A stretch of 6,217 nucleotides of DNA. It comes from a virus (Duplodnaviria; Heunggongvirae; Uroviricota; Caudoviricetes). This document shows positions 1,949 through 6,217 of the stretch, piece by piece. The notes below the pieces were generated by a model, which worked only from the letters and a program-made list of their open reading frames with translations, did not search any database and had not been told where the DNA came from. The stretch lies in IMG/VR virus record IMGVR_UViG_2695420746_000008, one strand, 5' to 3'. Made by a program: the position numbers and the translations under genes. Position 1 is the first letter of the stretch; every line of letters begins with the position of its first letter.

Positions 1949-2230
1949 TTATCCAGTGACGGTAGTCGAGGCTAAGGGCTTTTTTAACCTCGCATCCGCG
2001 CCTGCGGTAACACTGAATGAGCCATTCGGCCTGTTCTTCAGTGCATGGGGGATGCTGGTACCAATCAGATTTAAATGCGTGAGAGCGCCGCCCGTGCCTG
2101 CTGGCAAAGACGGCTGAATTATCAGAATTGTGTAGTCTGGAAGGCAGTGGCTGACAATAGCGCCATTCTCAACGCGCACAGTATAGAGGCCATCTTCACT
2201 AAAAATTTCACGTAATTCTTCGATTTTCAT
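1949..2230 (-). CDS. Hypothetical small protein (93 aa) at the position occupied by rem in Qin-type prophages
   Basis: ATG at 2230 with GGAAGGA 8 nt upstream (the track starts 3 nt earlier at a TTG). First ~30 residues (MKIEELREIFSEDGLYTVRVENGAIVSH) look protein-like and G is enriched at codon position 1; the C-terminal half is compositionally odd. Same frame as the DUF968 ORF, separated from it by a TAA and 75 nt. Confidence 0.5.
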   Translation of the reverse strand: MKIEELREIFSEDGLYTVRVENGAIVSHCLPDYTILIIQPSLPAGTGGALTHLNLIGTSIPHALKNRPNGSFSVTAGADARLKKPLASTTVTG

Positions 2231-2311
2231 CAACAGAATCCTTCCAGATAAATAGCACTCCCCTGTTCGGGGTCCATCCCTCTTCTCCCTGCGCGCTACT
2301 TAAGTGAGTCG

Positions 2312-2339
2312 ATTCTATCTGCGAAGGTGCGCGAATCAA
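2312..2339 (-). promoter_or_regulatory. Candidate sigma70 promoter (TTGATT-16 nt-TAGAAT) for the rem-like/DUF968/rusA/Q transcription unit
   Basis: On the minus strand the -35 TTGATT is at 2339..2334 and the -10 TAGAAT at 2317..2312 with a 16-nt spacer, about 80 nt upstream of the ATG at 2230. Hexamer match only; no experimental support. Confidence 0.25.
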
Positions 2340-2360
2340 ATTCACCGGAAATAAACAACA

Positions 2361-2399
2361 AAAAACCCGCCGAAACGCTGAGAGATCACAGCGATGGGC
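2361..2399 (-). terminator. Rho-independent terminator-like hairpin plus U-tract (3'-end module copy A)
   Basis: Minus strand reads CCCGCC...(CGCTG-tgatctct-CAGCG)...GGCGGG followed by TTTTT (plus-strand AAAAA at 2361-2365). GC stem with a U-run; the loop is unusually large because of a 22-nt insertion relative to copy B. Confidence 0.4.
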
Positions 2400-2438
2400 G
2401 GGTTAAGTGCGGGTGCGTTGAGGATGCCTGACACATCA
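2399..2438. repeat. 40-nt direct repeat, copy A (cgggttaagtgcgggtgcgttgaggatgcctgacacatca); abuts the N-run
   Basis: Exact 40-nt identity with 2592-2631. The upstream flank (aaaaacccgccgaaacg) is also shared apart from a 22-nt insertion in copy A. On the minus strand this is the sequence lying just 5' of the U-tract terminator. Confidence 0.9.
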
Positions 2439-2441
2439 AAG

Positions 2442-2528
2442 NNNNNNNNNNNNNNNNNNNNNNNNNNNNNNNNNNNNNNNNNNNNNNNNNNNNNNNNNNN
2501 NNNNNNNNNNNNNNNNNNNNNNNNNNNN
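2442..2528. other. Run of 87 N (assembly gap or masked sequence); content and true length unknown
   Basis: Positions 2442-2528 are all n. Confidence 1.
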
Positions 2529-2573
2529 GGGCATTATCTGAACATAAAACACTATCAATAAGTTGGAGTCATT

Positions 2574-2592
2574 ACCAAAAAAACCGCCGAAA
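2574..2592 (-). terminator. U-tract with short GC stem at the 3' end of the hok transcript (3'-end module copy B)
   Basis: Minus strand reads ...CCGC-loop-GGCGG followed by UUUUUU (plus-strand A6 at 2577-2582). The stem is short and weak, so termination efficiency is uncertain. A GC-rich hairpin (2637-2668) lies between the hok stop and this element. Confidence 0.35.
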
Positions 2593-2631
2593 CGGGTTAA
2601 GTGCGGGTGCGTTGAGGATGCCTGACACATC
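2592..2631. repeat. 40-nt direct repeat, copy B; candidate fbi-like 3' element of the hok mRNA
   Basis: Identical to 2399-2438. Its minus-strand sense (..ccucaacgcacccgcac..) is complementary to the predicted hok mRNA 5' end at 2988-3003 over about 15 nt with one bulge. Confidence 0.85.
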
Positions 2632-2673
2632 AGAGGTGGGCGGGGATGGGATCAGCTCCCCGCCCGGTCACTC

Positions 2674-2829
2674 TTACTTCCTGGATTCGTAGTCTACGAA
2701 GACAGCGACCTCCGTCTGGCCGGTTCGGATTCGTACCTCACAGAGGTCTTTCCTCGTTACCAGTGCCGTCACTATGACGGTTAAACAGATGACGATCAGG
2801 GCGATTAACATCGCCTTTTGCTGCTTCAT
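2674..2829 (-). CDS. hok: Hok-family type I toxin (51 aa, membrane-active small protein)
   Basis: Translation MKQQKAMLIALIVICLTVIVTALVTRKDLCEVRIRTGQTEVAVFVDYESRK is near-identical over the first ~44 residues to HokD/RelF of E. coli K-12 as I recall it. ATG at 2829 with AAGGAGAAG upstream; TAA stop at 2674-2676. Confidence 0.9.
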   Translation of the reverse strand: MKQQKAMLIALIVICLTVIVTALVTRKDLCEVRIRTGQTEVAVFVDYESRK

Positions 2830-2886
2830 AGCCTGCTTCTCCTTGCCTTTCGGCATGTAAGAGGCTAACCTACATGTGCAAAGCAT
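2674..2886 (-). CDS. mok: Mok-like in-frame upstream extension of hok (70 codons), expected to couple hok translation
   Basis: Track ORF of 70 aa in the hok frame. Its N-terminal extension MLCTCRLASYMPKGKEKQA resembles the MokC extension (MLNTCRVPLTDRKVKEKRA, from memory). Whether it is translated as such is inferred from hok/sok biology. Confidence 0.55.
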   Translation of the reverse strand: MLCTCRLASYMPKGKEKQAMKQQKAMLIALIVICLTVIVTALVTRKDLCEVRIRTGQTEVAVFVDYESRK

Positions 2887-2987
2887 GAAATTGGCCTCAG
2901 ATTAATGTTAAGCGTCTTGCCGGACGCGTAATGTTAACTGGGGCTTTTCTCTATCTGCCTTTTGGTGTTCATGCCTGAAGCAGATAG

Positions 2988-3003
2988 CCTCAAGCACCCG
3001 CAG
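2988..3003 (-). promoter_or_regulatory. tac-like 5' element of the hok mRNA, complementary to the 3' repeat element
   Basis: Plus-strand cctcaagcacccgcag (2988-3003) matches the minus-sense repeat ccucaacgcacccgcac at 15 of 16 positions with one indel. The mRNA 5' end can therefore pair with the 3' element, as in hok tac/fbi fold-back inhibition. Confidence 0.4.
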
Positions 3004-3005
3004 TC

Positions 3006-3035
3006 ATTCTACTTACCTCGCCAATATGAAATCAA
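3006..3035 (-). promoter_or_regulatory. Candidate hok promoter (TTGATT-18 nt-TAGAAT), predicted TSS near 2999
   Basis: Minus-strand -35 TTGATT at 3035..3030 and -10 TAGAAT at 3011..3006. The predicted start places the tac-like element at the extreme 5' end and gives a transcript of about 420 nt, consistent with known hok mRNAs. Confidence 0.4.
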
Positions 3036-3056
3036 TCAGAAAGGTGCCCCATAAAA

Positions 3057-3743
3057 TCACTCCTTCTCTTCTTTACCGTAGTGGAGTTGACCAATTTTGA
3101 TAAGAGGGCGTCCCTGAGATTTGCGGTGTAGATTGGTATCGCGCAGAGAATACACACAGCCACAATATTCCTGCTGATAGAATTTTTCGCGCTTGCTGAT
3201 TTCAATCATACGGGACGAGCCGCCCTGCTTGCGCCAGTTATAATCCCAGTACACCATGCCCGGATAATGCGCGACGGCTCGCCGCCCACAGTCGTTAACC
3301 TGCTGCATATTTTTCCAGCGTGAAATGCCCAGTGAACTGCTGATCACACTGAAACCATTTTCAGCGGCGTACAGCGCTGTCCGCTCAAAACGCATGTCAA
3401 AACACATGGTGCAACGGATCCCTCGTTCGGGCTCCCATTCCATTCCTTTGGCTCGTTCAAACCAGTTGTCTGTGTCGTAATCAGCATCAATAAACGGCAC
3501 GCCGTGTTGTTCAGCAAAGCGAATATTCTCATCCTTACGAATTAAATACTCTTTCTGAGGATGAATGTTCGGGTTGTAGAAAAAGATGGTGTAGTCGATT
3601 CCCGAGGCCTGAAGCGCCTCCATCACCTCACCGGAACATGGAGCACAGCAAGAGTGCAGTAGTAGTTTGTTTGCCCCGTTTGGGAGCTCCAATTTGGGCC
3701 GTTTGAAATCAGCAACTGTCATAAATATGTTTATTGGGGTCAT
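3057..3743 (-). CDS. queH: QueH-like protein (DUF208; epoxyqueuosine reductase family, Fe-S)
   Basis: 228-aa ORF with the N-terminal [11 protein letters not shown] motif that I recognise as the DUF208/QueH hallmark, plus additional Cys residues (CTMCFD, CGC). No obvious Shine-Dalgarno before the ATG at 3743; an alternative ATG is at 3722. The family call rests on motif recollection only. Confidence 0.7.
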
Positions 3744-3890: not shown

Positions 3891-4304
3891 TTATTCAGTT
3901 CTGGATTTTGTCGCCCTGCGTATCCGCGCTTTCGCGTTACGCTCAATCTGTATCAGCTTTTCTATATTTCTCCGCCTTTCCTGTTCCTCCTGGCGCAATA
4001 GCCTTACATCATCTGCCAGTCTGGTTTCTCTTTTTGCCACAGAGAGCATCCAGTCAAACGGCTCCACAACCGCACCGCAGATTTTACAGCGGACCTGACG
4101 CTCTTTTTCGTCAACCCGGACAGAGGCGTGATGGCAATATGGTCTTTCCGATGGCTCATAAAGAAAATTAACCTGATTACGAGGGTCATCCTCTTTTACC
4201 GGAAATAAAACGATATTGCTTAACTCATCTTCTGGTTTTATTTCCATGCTCCTCTCCTTTGATGCGAATGCCAGCGGTAATTGAAGCCTGATAGCTAATT
4301 TCAT
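3891..4304 (-). CDS. Hypothetical zinc-ribbon protein with basic coiled-coil C-terminus (137 aa; 118 aa if started at ATG 4247)
   Basis: Track ORF. It has a C-x-HH...C-x2-C cluster (YCHHASVRVDEKERQVRCKICG) and an Arg/Glu-rich C-terminal helix. Two possible starts: ATG 4304 directly after the upstream stop (TGA|ATG, GGAGG 10 nt upstream) or ATG 4247 (AAGGAGAGGAG upstream). Confidence 0.65.
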   Translation of the reverse strand: MKLAIRLQLPLAFASKERSMEIKPEDELSNIVLFPVKEDDPRNQVNFLYEPSERPYCHHASVRVDEKERQVRCKICGAVVEPFDWMLSVAKRETRLADDVRLLRQEEQERRRNIEKLIQIERNAKARIRRATKSRTE

Positions 4305-4727
4305 TCACAGTATCGCCTCCTGAAAATTACCCTGATAGAAAGCCAGTACACGCTGCATAGCTTCGCTCTTCCGGCACTCGCGACAGATTATATTCAGGCG
4401 CCTGTCGTAGCGGCGTATTTCTCCGTCAGGTAATGACCAGATAAGGTCCGGATCAACAACAACCGGTTTCCTCACCTTTACTCTCGAGAGTTTTTTGCGG
4501 GCGCTTTGCCAGTCCTTGCGAGCCTGTTCAGACGGGAATAAGCCGTAGCCAGAATTATATACATCACCACTTGCGACCAGTTCTATGCATAAGCGACCGA
4601 CAGACGCACGACTGATACCTGTTTCATCTGACAACTGCCGAATCGTGACCCGACCGTCCTGATGCACGAGTTCCACAATTCGCGTCTTCAGTTCTTCCCG
4701 CTGTTCGGGAGTAAAAGGTTTCGCCAT
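4305..4727 (-). CDS. Hypothetical winged-HTH DNA-binding protein (140 aa) with C-terminal CxxC
   Basis: Track ORF with ATG at 4727 and AGGAGGA 4 nt upstream. N-terminal HTH-like segment (RVTIRQLSDETGISRASVGRLCIEL) and C-terminal CRECRK. The stop abuts the next gene. Confidence 0.7.
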   Translation of the reverse strand: MAKPFTPEQREELKTRIVELVHQDGRVTIRQLSDETGISRASVGRLCIELVASGDVYNSGYGLFPSEQARKDWQSARKKLSRVKVRKPVVVDPDLIWSLPDGEIRRYDRRLNIICRECRKSEAMQRVLAFYQGNFQEAIL

Positions 4728-4741
4728 AAATCCTCCTGAAA

Positions 4742-5488
4742 CTACTTAACAACCCTCGAATGGCTAACATTCGGACGCCAGCTCTCCCAGTTAAAATTCA
4801 CCCAGCGCCCGCCGTTCATGACCATGCGATCCATCACCCGCTCGCCGAGCAATGTTTTCATCACCTCATAGTTCAGGTTTGTCAGCATCCCCACGCTGCG
4901 CATCGACGCTGTCCGGCGATCAACAATCTGGTGCAGCACCACCTGCTCGTTTTTCGTCTCGCGCTGAATGCCAATTTCATCAAGAACCAGCAGATCCACT
5001 TCGCACAGCTCCCGCAAAAATTTTTCGCCTGACTGCCCGTCGTCATAGCTGGCGTGCAGGGCGCTCATAACATCAGCCACGGTAACCACAATCACTGTCT
5101 GACCGTCTTTCAGCAGGCGATTCCCGATAGCTGCCGCTAAGTGATTCTTCCCGGTACCAGGTTTTCCGCTGAACGCAAAATTTGTACACCCGGTCATCAG
5201 TTCATCGGCGATGGATTTCGCCTGGCTTAACGCGTATCGCTGGCCGTCGTTCTGCACCTGGTAATTCGCAAACGAGCATTTACGGTGCAACGGCTGGATG
5301 CCTGAGCGATTCAGAATTTTTTCCACCCGCAACTGGCGATTCAGGCGGTTGATCTCCTCGCTACGTTTCTGGCCTTCAGCAAGTTGCCACTCGCGCCACT
5401 CCGCTACCGTTCTGAATGGGGCGGTTACATGTGGCGGGGTCAGTCGGCGGATGCGTTCCAGAACGCCGCCTGTCGCAATATTTTTCAT
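4742..5488 (-). CDS. DnaC-like replicative helicase loader (AAA+ ATPase; phage P-function analogue)
   Basis: 248 aa. Walker A FSGKPGTGKNHLAAAI and Walker B DLLVLDEIG are present. The protein is collinear with E. coli DnaC along its whole length (e.g. LTNLNYEVMKTLLGERVMDRM vs LTNSNMEEMTKLLGERVMDRM, from memory). Confidence 0.93.
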   Translation of the reverse strand: MKNIATGGVLERIRRLTPPHVTAPFRTVAEWREWQLAEGQKRSEEINRLNRQLRVEKILNRSGIQPLHRKCSFANYQVQNDGQRYALSQAKSIADELMTGCTNFAFSGKPGTGKNHLAAAIGNRLLKDGQTVIVVTVADVMSALHASYDDGQSGEKFLRELCEVDLLVLDEIGIQRETKNEQVVLHQIVDRRTASMRSVGMLTNLNYEVMKTLLGERVMDRMVMNGGRWVNFNWESWRPNVSHSRVVK

Positions 5489-5494
5489 GGTCCG

Positions 5495-6217
5495 TTACCC
5501 CCTGAAGCCTGGCGGGATCGCACTGTCCGGCAACGAGACGGTGTTAACCTGTCGGAGCAACGTCTCAGGCCGAACACCTTTCGGCGCGAACAGGCCCTGG
5601 TATTCATTGGCGATGCTGTGTCGAATCACCTGCTCAGGTGTAAAACCCTGCTGACGGAATTTTTCCAGTTCCCGTATCGCCCCGTTAGCGCCCTGCTCCG
5701 TTCGAATCGGTTTTCGCAATGCCTGTCTGAACCGGACCCACTCATGCCAGAGTGTTTCCGGCAACCAATCGGGCAGCTCAATAGCCTCCGGCTCGAATTT
5801 TTTAGACGCTCGTTTTTGGCGAGGGGGAGATCAGTATTTAGATCTTCCTCTTCCTCTTCCTCTGGTAACGCTTTTTGATCCGTTTGTGTAACGCTGGCAG
5901 CGTTACCTTTTCGTTTCAGTTCGCGTATTTTTGTTACTCGCTCGTTTGTAACCGCCCGTTTTTTTTAGAGCTTTTTCCGTTATGACGTTCAAAGTTAGGT
6001 AGAGAAAGCCCTCCGTCATTTTCGACCAGCCATCCAACCTGAATTAACGCATCAGCAAAACCAGACATAAAAGTGATGCGATCTATTGCACTTTTTGTAA
6101 CGCCGCGAGCGTTACAATCTGCATTACCGTCTATCATTTGTTGATCCGCCCATGCCCAGAAGCGAATAACCTGAGGTAGCCTGAGTTTAACGGACACTCC
6201 TTCCTGAAATAGAATGG
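5495..6217 (-). pseudogene. Replication initiation protein with DnaT-like C-terminal domain (YdaU-like); frame broken by two -1 shifts at A-tracts; 5' end beyond the window
   Basis: Three consecutive minus-strand frames are needed: frame A (open from the window edge to TAA at 5934), frame C (about 5964 to 5770, KKRAVTNERVTKIRELKRKGNAASVTQTDQKALPEEEEEEDLNTDLPLAKNER) and frame B (5830 to 5495). Frame B has no ATG and only a TTG at 5764. Its C-terminus VNTVSLPDSAIPPGFRG matches the E. coli DnaT C-terminus VNTVSEPDSQIPPGFRG. Frame switches coincide with A8 (plus 5959-5966) and A6 (plus 5798-5803). Confidence 0.6.
5844..5861. repeat. (CTTCCT)3 hexanucleotide tandem repeat, encoding a Glu6 acidic linker on the minus strand
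   Basis: Direct reading: cttcct cttcct cttcct. In minus frame C this is GAG GAA GAG GAA GAG GAA. Confidence 0.9.

What the first reader, a model, noticed from the sequence alone, without database searches (positions are those of the whole stretch)
2574..3035. Complete hok/mok-type type I toxin locus with predicted 5'/3' fold-back pairing
The Hok toxin ORF is nearly identical to HokD/RelF, but unlike K-12 hokD, which I recall sits downstream of relBE and lacks mok/sok, this copy has an in-frame mok-like extension, a candidate promoter and a 5' element complementary to a conserved 3' element about 400 nt downstream, the tac/fbi arrangement of functional hok mRNAs. It may therefore be an active toxin locus stabilising the prophage.
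Basis: partly seen in the sequence, partly recalled or inferred. Interest (0 to 1): 0.6.

Follow-up and report, generated by a model that had tools for sequence, protein, structure and literature searches.

The report
Known prophage hok/sok toxin-antitoxin locus
This is a complete but ordinary copy of the well-known hok/mok/sok RNA-controlled toxin locus that most E. coli carry in lambda-like prophages, nearly identical to the already characterised hokW-sokW, so it is correctly read but not new.

Summary
Window 2577-3035 (minus strand) holds a complete hok/mok/sok type I toxin-antitoxin locus.

- **Toxin:** the 51-aa Hok (Pfam HOK_GEF, E 4e-23) matches HokW of prophage Sp5 at 50/51 residues and K-12 HokD at 46/51.
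- **mok:** an in-frame 70-codon ORF with its own Shine-Dalgarno sequence.
- **Leader:** a full-length Rfam RF01794 match (117 bits against a threshold of 59) starts 7 nt after a TTGATT-18-TAGAAT promoter.
- **Sok:** a predicted antisense RNA whose promoter hexamers match the corresponding Sp5 sequence, where sokW RNA was detected.
- **Fold-back:** 12 pairs between the 5' end (2988-2999) and a 3' element (2605-2617), with pair probability of at least 0.97.

None of this is new. A 100% identical IS-free copy is annotated in RefSeq, about 70% of complete E. coli genomes carry the locus, and hokW-sokW has been shown experimentally to be an active toxin-antitoxin system. That study found help with lysis and phage release after induction.

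The parts
3006..3035 (-). hok promoter: -35 TTGATT (3035-3030), 18-nt spacer, -10 TAGAAT (3011-3006); start predicted at G2999
   Evidence: Consensus scan. The -10 hexamer is conserved in relatives. The Rfam model starts at 2999.
2577..2999 (-). Predicted full-length hok mRNA (423 nt)
   Evidence: Fold at -170.6 kcal/mol, z -7.5. The ends are inferred from the promoter and the terminator.
2824..2999 (-). hok mRNA leader, a match to Rfam RF01794 ('sok')
   Evidence: 117 bits against a gathering score of 59, E 5.4e-27, model positions 1-157 of 157.
2988..2999 (-). tac element, GGGUGCUUGAGG
   Evidence: Pairs with fbi at probability 0.97-1.00. Identical in 52 of 55 unique related loci.
2940..2946 (-). 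ucb / anti-SD, AAGCCCC. It pairs with the mok SD in the full-length fold and with tac in the isolated 5' domain.
   Evidence: Folds. The Rfam consensus structure has the same tac-ucb stem.
2895..2898 (-). mok Shine-Dalgarno sequence, GAGG
   Evidence: Read directly from the sequence. P(unpaired) is 0.25 in the full-length fold.
2674..2886 (-). mok-like ORF of 70 codons, in frame with hok and sharing its stop codon
   Evidence: ORF list. The 19-codon in-frame extension is kept in 43 of 55 unique relatives. K-12 mokC/hokC have the same layout.
2839..2843 (-). hok Shine-Dalgarno sequence, AGGAG
   Evidence: Read directly from the sequence. Invariant across the family alignment.
2674..2829 (-). 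hok toxin ORF, 51 aa
   Evidence: Pfam HOK_GEF E 4.3e-23. 50/51 identical to HokW and 46/51 to HokD.
2843..2871 (+). Predicted sok promoter: -35 TTGCCT (2843-2848), 17-nt spacer, -10 TAACCT (2866-2871)
   Evidence: Same hexamers and spacing as the corresponding Sp5 sequence, with one spacer difference. sokW RNA is made from its own promoter in Sp5. The consensus scan did not call this site.
2877..2952 (+). Predicted Sok antisense RNA of about 75 nt: single-stranded 5' end, long hairpin, then a U-rich tail
   Evidence: Fold at -31.9 kcal/mol, z -4.7. The ends were inferred by mapping the annotated K-12 sokB onto the Rfam alignment.
2637..2665 (-). G+C-rich 3'-UTR hairpin, the expected protective 3' stem-loop of the processed mRNA
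   Evidence: 9-bp stem in the MFE structure. Its role in R1 is described in PMC9841398.
2605..2617 (-). fbi element, CCUCAA(C)GCACCC
   Evidence: Across 12 loci, 90% of cells are paired against 39-58% when the 3' partners are slid by 1-3 columns, and two pairs change on both sides.
2577..2598 (-). Degenerate intrinsic terminator, AACCCGUUUCGGCGG plus U7 (4-bp core stem)
   Evidence: Weak fold, z +0.5, and not called by the terminator scan. The same variant occurs without an IS in L023.
2529..2576 (+). Last 48 nt of IS1 (end of the transposase CDS plus the right inverted repeat), flush against the hok U-run
   Evidence: Annotated as IS1A/IS1B transposase under the match. The IS1 sequence continues in L006.
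2442..2528 (.). Run of 87 N, unreadable (a scaffold gap or masking)
2351..2441 (-). Second hok 3' end: fbi copy (2411-2423) and a long terminator (2364-2404). Its upstream part is lost in the N run.
   Evidence: Alignment to FDAARGOS_943. The terminator folds with z -3.1. A complete locus with this 3' end exists in L098.

Best explanation
The region is a complete hok/mok/sok type I toxin-antitoxin cassette of the prophage hokW/hokD clade. It sits in the early-right (nin) region of a lambda-like prophage, between queH and a rem-like gene.

Shown here by sequence and folding:
- A sigma-70-type promoter (3035-3006) starts a transcript of about 423 nt at G2999.
- Its first 12 nt (tac) pair with a 3' element (fbi, 2605-2617), closing the molecule.
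- In that closed form the mok SD and AUG are paired: GAGG with the upstream box AAGCCCC at 2940-2946.
- The isolated 5' domain can instead form the tac-ucb stem that is also the Rfam consensus structure. It can also form a local hairpin of tac with the sequence just downstream, the metastable form described for R1.

Inferred from the plasmid R1 paradigm (PMC9841398) and from hokW-sokW (PMC8621323):
- Slow 3' trimming removes fbi.
- The 5' end then refolds onto ucb, which frees the mok SD.
- Ribosomes reading mok allow Hok to be made.
- The antisense Sok RNA of about 75 nt (about 2877-2952, + strand) binds the refolded leader and blocks translation, with RNase III and Hfq contributing only partly in hokW-sokW.
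- Hok, a 51-aa inner-membrane peptide, damages the membrane once Sok is lost.

The whole gene row in the window, hok included, is on one strand. Early rightward prophage transcription after induction would therefore run through hok in sense and across the sok promoter in antisense. This is my inference, and it fits the reported loss of sokW RNA and the RecA-dependent HokW production after mitomycin C.
For: - Rfam RF01794 matches over the full model at 117 bits.
- Pfam HOK_GEF gives E 4e-23.
- The promoter lies 7 nt upstream of the model start.
- The MFE and centroid both contain tac-fbi, z -7.5, with pair probabilities of at least 0.97.
- The duplex beats all 300 shuffles.
- On 12 diverse hok loci, 90% of tac-fbi cells pair against 39-58% in slid controls. 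Changes occur on both sides at two pairs: U-A to C-G in three plasmid loci, and G-C to A-U in hokB.
- The tac-ucb stem appears in the isolated 5' domain. The tac local hairpin appears in the 3'-truncated fold.
- P(unpaired) of the mok AUG rises from 0.08 to 0.51 after removing 55 nt from the 3' end.
- The Sok candidate folds with z -4.7. Its promoter hexamers equal the corresponding Sp5 sequence.
- DNA identity to the Sp5 locus is about 92%, and Hok is 50/51 identical to HokW.
- No frameshift, stop codon or promoter lesion is seen relative to Sp5.
- A 100% identical IS-free copy exists in FDAARGOS_943 and 944, and the Hok protein and aligned DNA are also identical or near-identical (99.8-100%) in three IMG/VR contigs.
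- HokW toxicity and sokW antitoxin activity were shown experimentally.
Against: - Nothing about this particular copy has been measured.
- The hok-proximal terminator is a degenerate variant with a 4-bp core stem. It did not fold better than shuffles and was not called by the terminator scan. An IS1 end starts right after its U-run, so 3' end formation could differ from that of studied loci.
- The sok promoter fails the simple consensus scan: its -10, TAACCT, matches only 3 of 6 positions.
- MFE folding of a 41-nt truncation did not open the mok SD.
- The junction between the IS1-linked 3' end and the hok body is found in no other genome searched. It lies next to an N run, so the 3' end as assembled could be chimeric.
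- The chromosomal hokA, hokB and hokC loci tested in the literature gave no post-segregational killing.
Confidence: 0.9

Rival explanations
1. The locus is structurally intact but silent in practice. Like the chromosomal hokA, hokB and hokC loci, it produces the RNAs but neither kills nor stabilises anything. Alternatively this copy is crippled because the weak terminator and the adjacent IS1 disturb formation of the 3' end that sets the fold-back.
For: [quoted passage not shown] The terminator is degenerate. IS1 abuts it. IS elements recur beside hok 3' ends: IS186A lies 19 nt after the K-12 hokC stop, and further cases are L088, L002 and L095.
Against: Here the IS sits after the U-run, so fbi, the 3' hairpin and the whole transcript are untouched, unlike K-12 hokC. 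The same short terminator occurs naturally without an IS (L023). The nearest relative, hokW-sokW, is active.
Confidence: 0.2
2. One reading: the locus acts as an addiction module that kills cells which lose the prophage.
For: This is the classical role of plasmid hok/sok. hok genes are about four-fold enriched in prophages.
Against: No evidence for it was found in this clade. Sp5 hokW-sokW was reported to speed lysis and double phage release after induction. The tested chromosomal loci lacked post-segregational killing. The window's prophage also looks decayed (IS1, a 250-bp deletion in the rem-like gene), so excision may not occur at all.
Confidence: 0.12
3. The 3' end as given (IS1 end plus short terminator, 2529-2592) is an assembly chimera. 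The true hok mRNA would end in the long terminator now seen at 2364-2404, as in FDAARGOS_943, and the window would hold only one hok locus.
For: Window 2529-2632 is identical to the IS1-linked allele in L003-L007, while 2593-3060 is 100% identical to FDAARGOS_943, with a 40-nt shared overlap. The left copy carries the other allele's 'CATCAAAG' and then runs into 87 N. No complete E. coli genome has this combination. Related IMG/VR contigs carry single N characters at such joins.
Against: The long terminator joined to the 'CATCAAAG' allele exists as a complete natural locus (L098). L007 carries two complete hok loci 1.4 kb apart with an IS1 end between them. A real tandem arrangement with recombined 3' ends is therefore just as plausible.
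Confidence: 0.3

Closest known systems
hokW-sokW of Sakai prophage 5 / phage 933W type (E. coli O157:H7)
   Same: The prophage context is the same, and every element is collinear: -10 hexamer, tac, ucb, the Sok region, in-frame mok, hok, the 3' hairpin and fbi. DNA identity is about 92%. Hok is 50/51 identical and Mok-Hok is 70 aa in both. The sok promoter hexamers are identical.
   Different: Hok residue 50 is R rather than E. The sequence upstream of the -10 differs, so the -35 differs. The sequence after fbi differs: Sp5 has another 3' end, while the window has a short terminator followed by IS1.
hok/mok/sok of plasmid R1 (parB), the family paradigm
   Same: The architecture and the predicted RNA switch are the same: tac/fbi, ucb, the metastable 5' hairpin, mok-coupled translation and a cis-antisense Sok. 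Related plasmid loci match the same Rfam model and keep the tac-fbi pairing through compensatory changes.
   Different: Protein identity to the plasmid-type Hok toxins fetched here is about 42%; the hokW paper gives 44% between HokW and R1 Hok. In R1, as I recall it, mok is in a different frame from hok, whereas here it is in frame; among loci fetched here, K-12 mokB and hokB end at different positions. The locus is on a prophage, not a plasmid. Post-segregational killing is shown for R1 and not for this clade.
K-12 hokD (relF) in the Qin prophage
   Same: Same toxin clade (46/51 identical). The same fbi and terminator region is kept downstream, and the same neighbour (rem, ydfU/DUF968) lies on the 3' side. 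PGAP names the window's exact allele 'HokD'.
   Different: K-12 hokD has relB-relE directly upstream. It shares sequence only from about 12 nt before the ATG, so it lacks tac, ucb, mok and sok, and it gives no RF01794 match.
K-12 hokC/mokC/sokC (gef)
   Same: mok is in frame and shares the hok stop codon. A sok RNA is annotated in the same relative position. An IS element lies next to the 3' end. IS-free hokC-type loci have the same tac and a near-identical fbi.
   Different: In K-12, IS186 sits 19 nt after the stop, between hok and fbi, so it separates fbi from the mRNA. In the window, IS1 sits after the terminator U-run and leaves the transcript intact.

Membership tests
[quoted passage not shown] | Small hydrophobic Hok/Gef toxin ORF | tested here: met
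   Pfam HOK_GEF E 4.3e-23, 81 bits against a cut-off of 22, profile positions 1-42 of 42.
[quoted passage not shown] | Conserved structured hok mRNA leader | tested here: met
   RF01794 at 117 bits against a gathering score of 59, full model.
[quoted passage not shown] | mok reading frame with its own SD, starting upstream of hok and overlapping it | tested here: met
   70-codon ORF from ATG 2886, with GAGG 8 nt upstream. The extension is kept in 43 of 55 unique relatives.
[quoted passage not shown] | Long-range tac/fbi pairing of the mRNA 5' end with its 3' end | tested here: met
   Present in the MFE and centroid. Pair probabilities are at least 0.97. 0 of 300 shuffles match the duplex energy. 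90% of cells are paired against 39-58% in slid controls, with two pairs changed on both sides.
[quoted passage not shown] | Alternative tac/ucb pairing and a metastable 5' hairpin, which allow the closed-to-open switch | tested here: met
   Both are predicted: tac-ucb in the 60-nt 5' domain and the tac local hairpin in the truncated RNA. This is prediction only. The columns are nearly invariant, so there is no covariation evidence.
[quoted passage not shown] | Cis-encoded antisense Sok RNA with its own promoter and terminator | tested here: inconclusive
   The hairpin plus U-rich tail folds with z -4.7. The promoter hexamers are identical to the corresponding Sp5 sequence, and sokW RNA was detected in Sp5. 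The promoter fails the consensus scan, and no RNA data exist for this copy.
[quoted passage not shown] | 3' processing to a translatable truncated mRNA; Hok toxicity; neutralisation by Sok | not testable with these tools
   These need northern blots and toxicity assays. They are inferred from R1 and hokW-sokW.
K-12-type hokD/relF (truncated locus in the relBEF operon) | hok directly downstream of relB-relE, with no tac, mok or sok leader | tested here: not met
   The window has the full leader and has queH upstream. K-12 hokD lacks the leader. The PGAP name 'HokD' describes the toxin clade only.
NCBIfam Hok family models | Score above the curated cut-off | tested here: not met
   NF007279 scores 55 bits against a cut-off of 73. 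NF007290 (HokA) scores 39 against 89. These models are built on other Hok clades, and the Pfam and Rfam evidence is unaffected.
IS1 insertion sequence | Terminal inverted repeat and the end of the transposase gene | tested here: met
   Window 2529-2576 lies under 'IS1-like element IS1A/IS1B family transposase' matches. The same junction continues into the IS1 body in L006.
IS1 insertion sequence | Complete 768-bp element with both ends and a target duplication | not testable with these tools
   The remainder lies in the 87-N run.

The most novel reading that the evidence does not exclude
The window may hold two tandem hok loci that have exchanged 3' ends by recombination through the conserved 40-nt fbi segment. 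In the copy that can be read, IS1 lies flush against a degenerate terminator. hok transcripts would then run on into IS1, and transcription leaving IS1 would run antisense across fbi. The 3' end that sets the fold-back would no longer be fixed. That would be an IS-linked retuning or silencing of a hok locus by a route different from the K-12 hokA/C/E cases.
Probability: 0.1. Interest if true: 0.3.

Novelty: already known. Interest (0 to 1): 0.1.

Why it matters
It matters little beyond correct annotation. The case shows that genome annotation (PGAP) labels only the toxin ORF as 'HokD', while the mok frame, the Sok RNA and the tac/fbi elements go unannotated. It also shows that complete prophage hok/sok cassettes, not the truncated K-12 hokD, are the norm in E. 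coli. If this copy is active, it would add one more membrane-toxin module that fires on prophage induction. The IS1 next to the terminator and the hidden second copy are of local interest for how hok loci decay and recombine.

Tried and rejected
- **Source contig.** A genome-contig scan for the exact IS1-hok junction found nothing. The viral-contig scan found five contigs with the junction, all carrying the other hok allele, so the source contig was not recovered.
- **Contents of the N run.** Searching for the left junction found one contig (L098) in which a complete hok locus follows. This is suggestive only.
- **Consensus scans.** The terminator scan called neither terminator, and the promoter scan did not call the sok promoter. 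I relied instead on folding and on identity with the corresponding Sp5 sequence.
- **NCBIfam.** The Hok models scored below their cut-offs. I judged this a matter of model scope, not evidence against membership.
- **Truncated mRNA.** The equilibrium fold after removing 41 nt kept the mok SD paired. Only the 55-nt truncation partly opened the mok AUG. This is weak support for the switch, which is kinetic in R1.
- **Duplex-versus-shuffle test on plasmid loci.** It was not significant for three of the four plasmid loci (L092, L093, L097), because G+C-rich 3' regions give strong random duplexes. The positional alignment test was more informative.
- **sR55 snoRNA match.** The match at 1424-1485 (24 bits against a threshold of 35) was dismissed as chance.
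- **K-12-type hokD.** I considered and rejected the idea that this is a relBEF-type hokD.

Full report
**What the window is.** All substantial ORFs lie on the minus strand and form the early-right/nin part of a lambda-like prophage:
- an O-like replication ORF (5934-6197)
- a DnaC/IstB-like ATPase (4742-5488)
- DUF977 (4305-4727)
- a zinc-ribbon ORF (3891-4304)
- QueH (3057-3743)
- the hok region
- a rem-like ORF (1949-2233)
- DUF968/HNH (815-1873)
- RusA (434-814)

The same gene row (DUF977, QueH, hokD, a small rem-like ORF) is annotated in E. coli FDAARGOS_943.

**Checking the observation.** The 51-aa ORF at 2674-2829(-) is a Hok/Gef toxin (Pfam E 4.3e-23). ATG 2886 opens a 70-codon frame that runs in frame into hok and ends at the same stop, with GAGG 8 nt upstream.

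The consensus scan finds TTGATT-18-TAGAAT at 3035-3006(-). Rfam's hok/sok leader model RF01794 matches 2999-2824(-) from its first to its last position at 117 bits (threshold 59, E 5e-27). The modelled RNA therefore starts 7 nt after the -10 hexamer.

The first 12 nt, GGGUGCUUGAGG, pair with CCUCAA(C)GCACCC at 2617-2605 in both the MFE and the centroid. Each of the 12 pairs has probability 0.97-1.00 in the ensemble. The duplex, at -21.5 kcal/mol, beats all 300 shuffles of the 3' region. The only corrections are that 2574-2576 are the last bases of an IS1 end, and that the closest named toxin is HokW (50/51) rather than HokD (46/51).

**The K-12 comparison.** K-12 hokD lies directly downstream of relB-relE. 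It aligns with the window only from about 12 nt before the ATG onward and gives no RF01794 match. It does keep fbi and a terminator.

**Other elements of the RNA switch.** The literature on plasmid R1 defines the following (PMC9841398):
- a closed full-length mRNA held by tac/fbi, in which an upstream box (ucb) masks the mok SD
- 3' trimming
- an open form with a tac/ucb stem
- a metastable 5' hairpin in the nascent RNA
- a protective last stem-loop on the trimmed mRNA
- Sok binding to the open form

In the window's full-length fold, the mok SD (2895-2898) pairs with AAGCCCC (2940-2946). The isolated 5' 60 nt form the tac-ucb stem (-24.1 kcal/mol, z -3.5), which is also the Rfam consensus structure. 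The RNA lacking its last 41 nt folds tac onto the sequence just downstream. Removing 55 nt raises P(unpaired) of the mok AUG from 0.08 to 0.51. A 9-bp G+C-rich hairpin (2637-2665) sits where the protective stem-loop is expected.

On the plus strand, TTGCCT-17-TAACCT (2843-2871) is followed by an RNA of about 75 nt. This RNA has a free 5' end, a long hairpin and a U-rich tail (z -4.7). The hexamers and spacing equal the corresponding Sp5 sequence, with one spacer difference. All of these are predictions. The Sok promoter is too weak for the consensus scan.

**Support from relatives.** Twelve loci were aligned: the window, Sp5 hokW, four other prophage or chromosomal loci, K-12 hokB, two hokC-type loci and four plasmid loci. 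The named tac-fbi helix is paired in 90% of cells, against 39-58% when the 3' partner is slid by 1-3 columns. Two pairs change on both sides: U-A to C-G in three plasmid loci, and G-C to A-U in hokB. Covariation is modest because both elements are almost invariant within the prophage clade: tac is identical in 52 of 55 unique loci. It agrees with the published phylogenetic support cited in PMC9841398.

**How common and how well known.** 3805 of 5426 complete E. coli genomes hold at least 80% of the query. FDAARGOS_943 and 944 carry a 100% identical copy over 2593-3060, annotated 'type I toxin-antitoxin system toxin HokD'. Phage records call it MokW, gef or host-killer protein.

hokW-sokW of Sakai prophage 5 is about 92% identical and has been studied (PMC8621323):
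- HokW is toxic.
- sokW RNA made from its own promoter neutralises it, partly through RNase III and Hfq.
- After mitomycin C, sokW RNA disappears.
- HokW is then made in a RecA-dependent way and goes to the inner membrane.
- Deleting the locus halves phage release.

A 2025-26 survey reports Hok in almost 80% of Enterobacteriaceae genomes and a four-fold enrichment in prophages. It also recalls that chromosomal hokA, hokB and hokC did not give post-segregational killing. The finding is therefore a correct reading of a known, common system. The proposed role in stabilising the prophage is untested and is not what the nearest relative shows.

**Mechanism I commit to.** The locus works as in R1 and hokW-sokW. 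The stable, closed hok mRNA is slowly trimmed and refolds. It is then either captured by short-lived Sok or, once Sok is lost, translated through mok into Hok.

One inference is my own. hok lies in the same orientation as the whole early operon, and no terminator is predicted between queH and hok. Induced early transcription should therefore read through hok in sense and over the sok promoter in antisense. That would explain induction-coupled loss of Sok.

- *IS1 end.* The hok transcript's U-run (2577-2583) is followed immediately by the last 48 nt of IS1 (2529-2576) and then by 87 N (2442-2528).
- *Degenerate terminator.* The hok-proximal terminator is AACCCGUUUCGGCGG plus U7, with a 4-bp core stem. 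This variant also occurs naturally without an IS (L023).
- *Second 3' end.* Left of the N run, 2351-2441 is a second hok 3' end, with an fbi copy and a long, well-folding terminator (z -3.1). In FDAARGOS_943 this sequence is the direct continuation of the very same hok allele.
- *Mosaic join.* Window 2529-2632 is identical to an IS1-linked allele in five IMG/VR contigs. Window 2593-3060 is identical to the FDAARGOS allele, and the two share 40 nt. The left copy ends in that other allele's 'CATCAAAG'. No complete E. coli genome has the window's combination.

Two readings remain open. The first is an assembly chimera across a repeated 40-mer next to a scaffold gap. The second is a real tandem pair of hok loci with recombined 3' ends. 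L098 shows a complete locus with the left copy's 3' end, and L007 has two complete hok loci 1.4 kb apart with an IS1 end between them. Either way the hok body, leader and fbi are intact. This differs from K-12 hokC, where IS186 sits 19 nt after the stop and cuts fbi off.

**Verdict.** The structural interpretation is supported, and the functional suggestion is unsupported. The feature is already known and very common, so interest is low.

Noticed in passing
window 2529-2576 and 2442-2528: The last 48 nt of IS1 (end of the transposase gene plus the right inverted repeat) lie flush against the U-run of the hok terminator. They are followed by an unreadable run of 87 N, so it cannot be told whether the IS1 is complete.
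   Followed up: partly
window 2351-2441: A second hok 3' end is present, with an fbi copy at 2411-2423 and a long terminator at 2364-2404. Its upstream part vanishes into the N run. L098 has a complete hok locus with this 3' end, and L007 has two complete hok loci 1.4 kb apart, so a second hok locus may be hidden here.
   Followed up: partly
window 2529-2632 versus 2593-3060: The IS1-linked 3' end is identical to one hok allele (L003-L007) and the hok body is 100% identical to another (FDAARGOS_943), with a 40-nt overlap. This is either a recombinant or an assembly chimera. The combination is absent from 5426 complete E. coli genomes.
   Followed up: partly
window 1949-2233 (-), breakpoint at 2142/2143: The rem-like ORF shares its first 30 residues with the 87-aa ORF of L007 and then diverges. 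The window lacks 250 bp that L007 has at this point, so the gene looks disrupted.
   Followed up: partly
window 2312-2339 (-): A second promoter-like site, TTGATT-16-TAGAAT, has the same hexamers as the hok promoter. It lies just after the long terminator and upstream of the rem-like ORF.
   Followed up: no
window 2685-2691 (-), Hok codon Tyr47: The Tyr47 codon UAC is followed by G inside CUACGAA, which as I recall is the anticodon-loop sequence of tRNA-Arg(ACG). A recent survey states that hokC, hokD and hokE mRNAs are A-to-I edited by TadA at the equivalent Tyr-to-Cys position. No clear tRNA-like stem was predicted here.
   Followed up: partly
window 3057-3743 (-): A QueH epoxyqueuosine reductase homologue (Pfam E 2e-65) is encoded in the prophage early region directly upstream of hok, with no predicted terminator between them. 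Read-through from the early operon into hok is therefore likely.
   Followed up: no
L096 1-600 (Enterobacter hormaechei plasmid NZ_CP031569.1): This plasmid carries relB-relE-hok in the same order as the K-12 relBEF operon and also lacks the RF01794 leader. The truncated arrangement is therefore not peculiar to K-12 Qin.
   Followed up: no
L099 (K-12 hokC), L088, L002, L095: IS elements recur beside hok 3' ends. IS186A lies 19 nt after the K-12 hokC stop, and IS186 sits in the same G+C-rich hairpin in L088. IS1 lies after a different hokD terminator in L002. IS421 lies 79 nt after a plasmid hok in L095.
   Followed up: partly
L009 2618-3040: The neighbourhood of another prophage hok locus (RMDEC465) holds matches to the C4 antisense RNA, its a1/b1 targets, isrK and sRNA-Xcc1, all above their gathering scores.
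   Followed up: no
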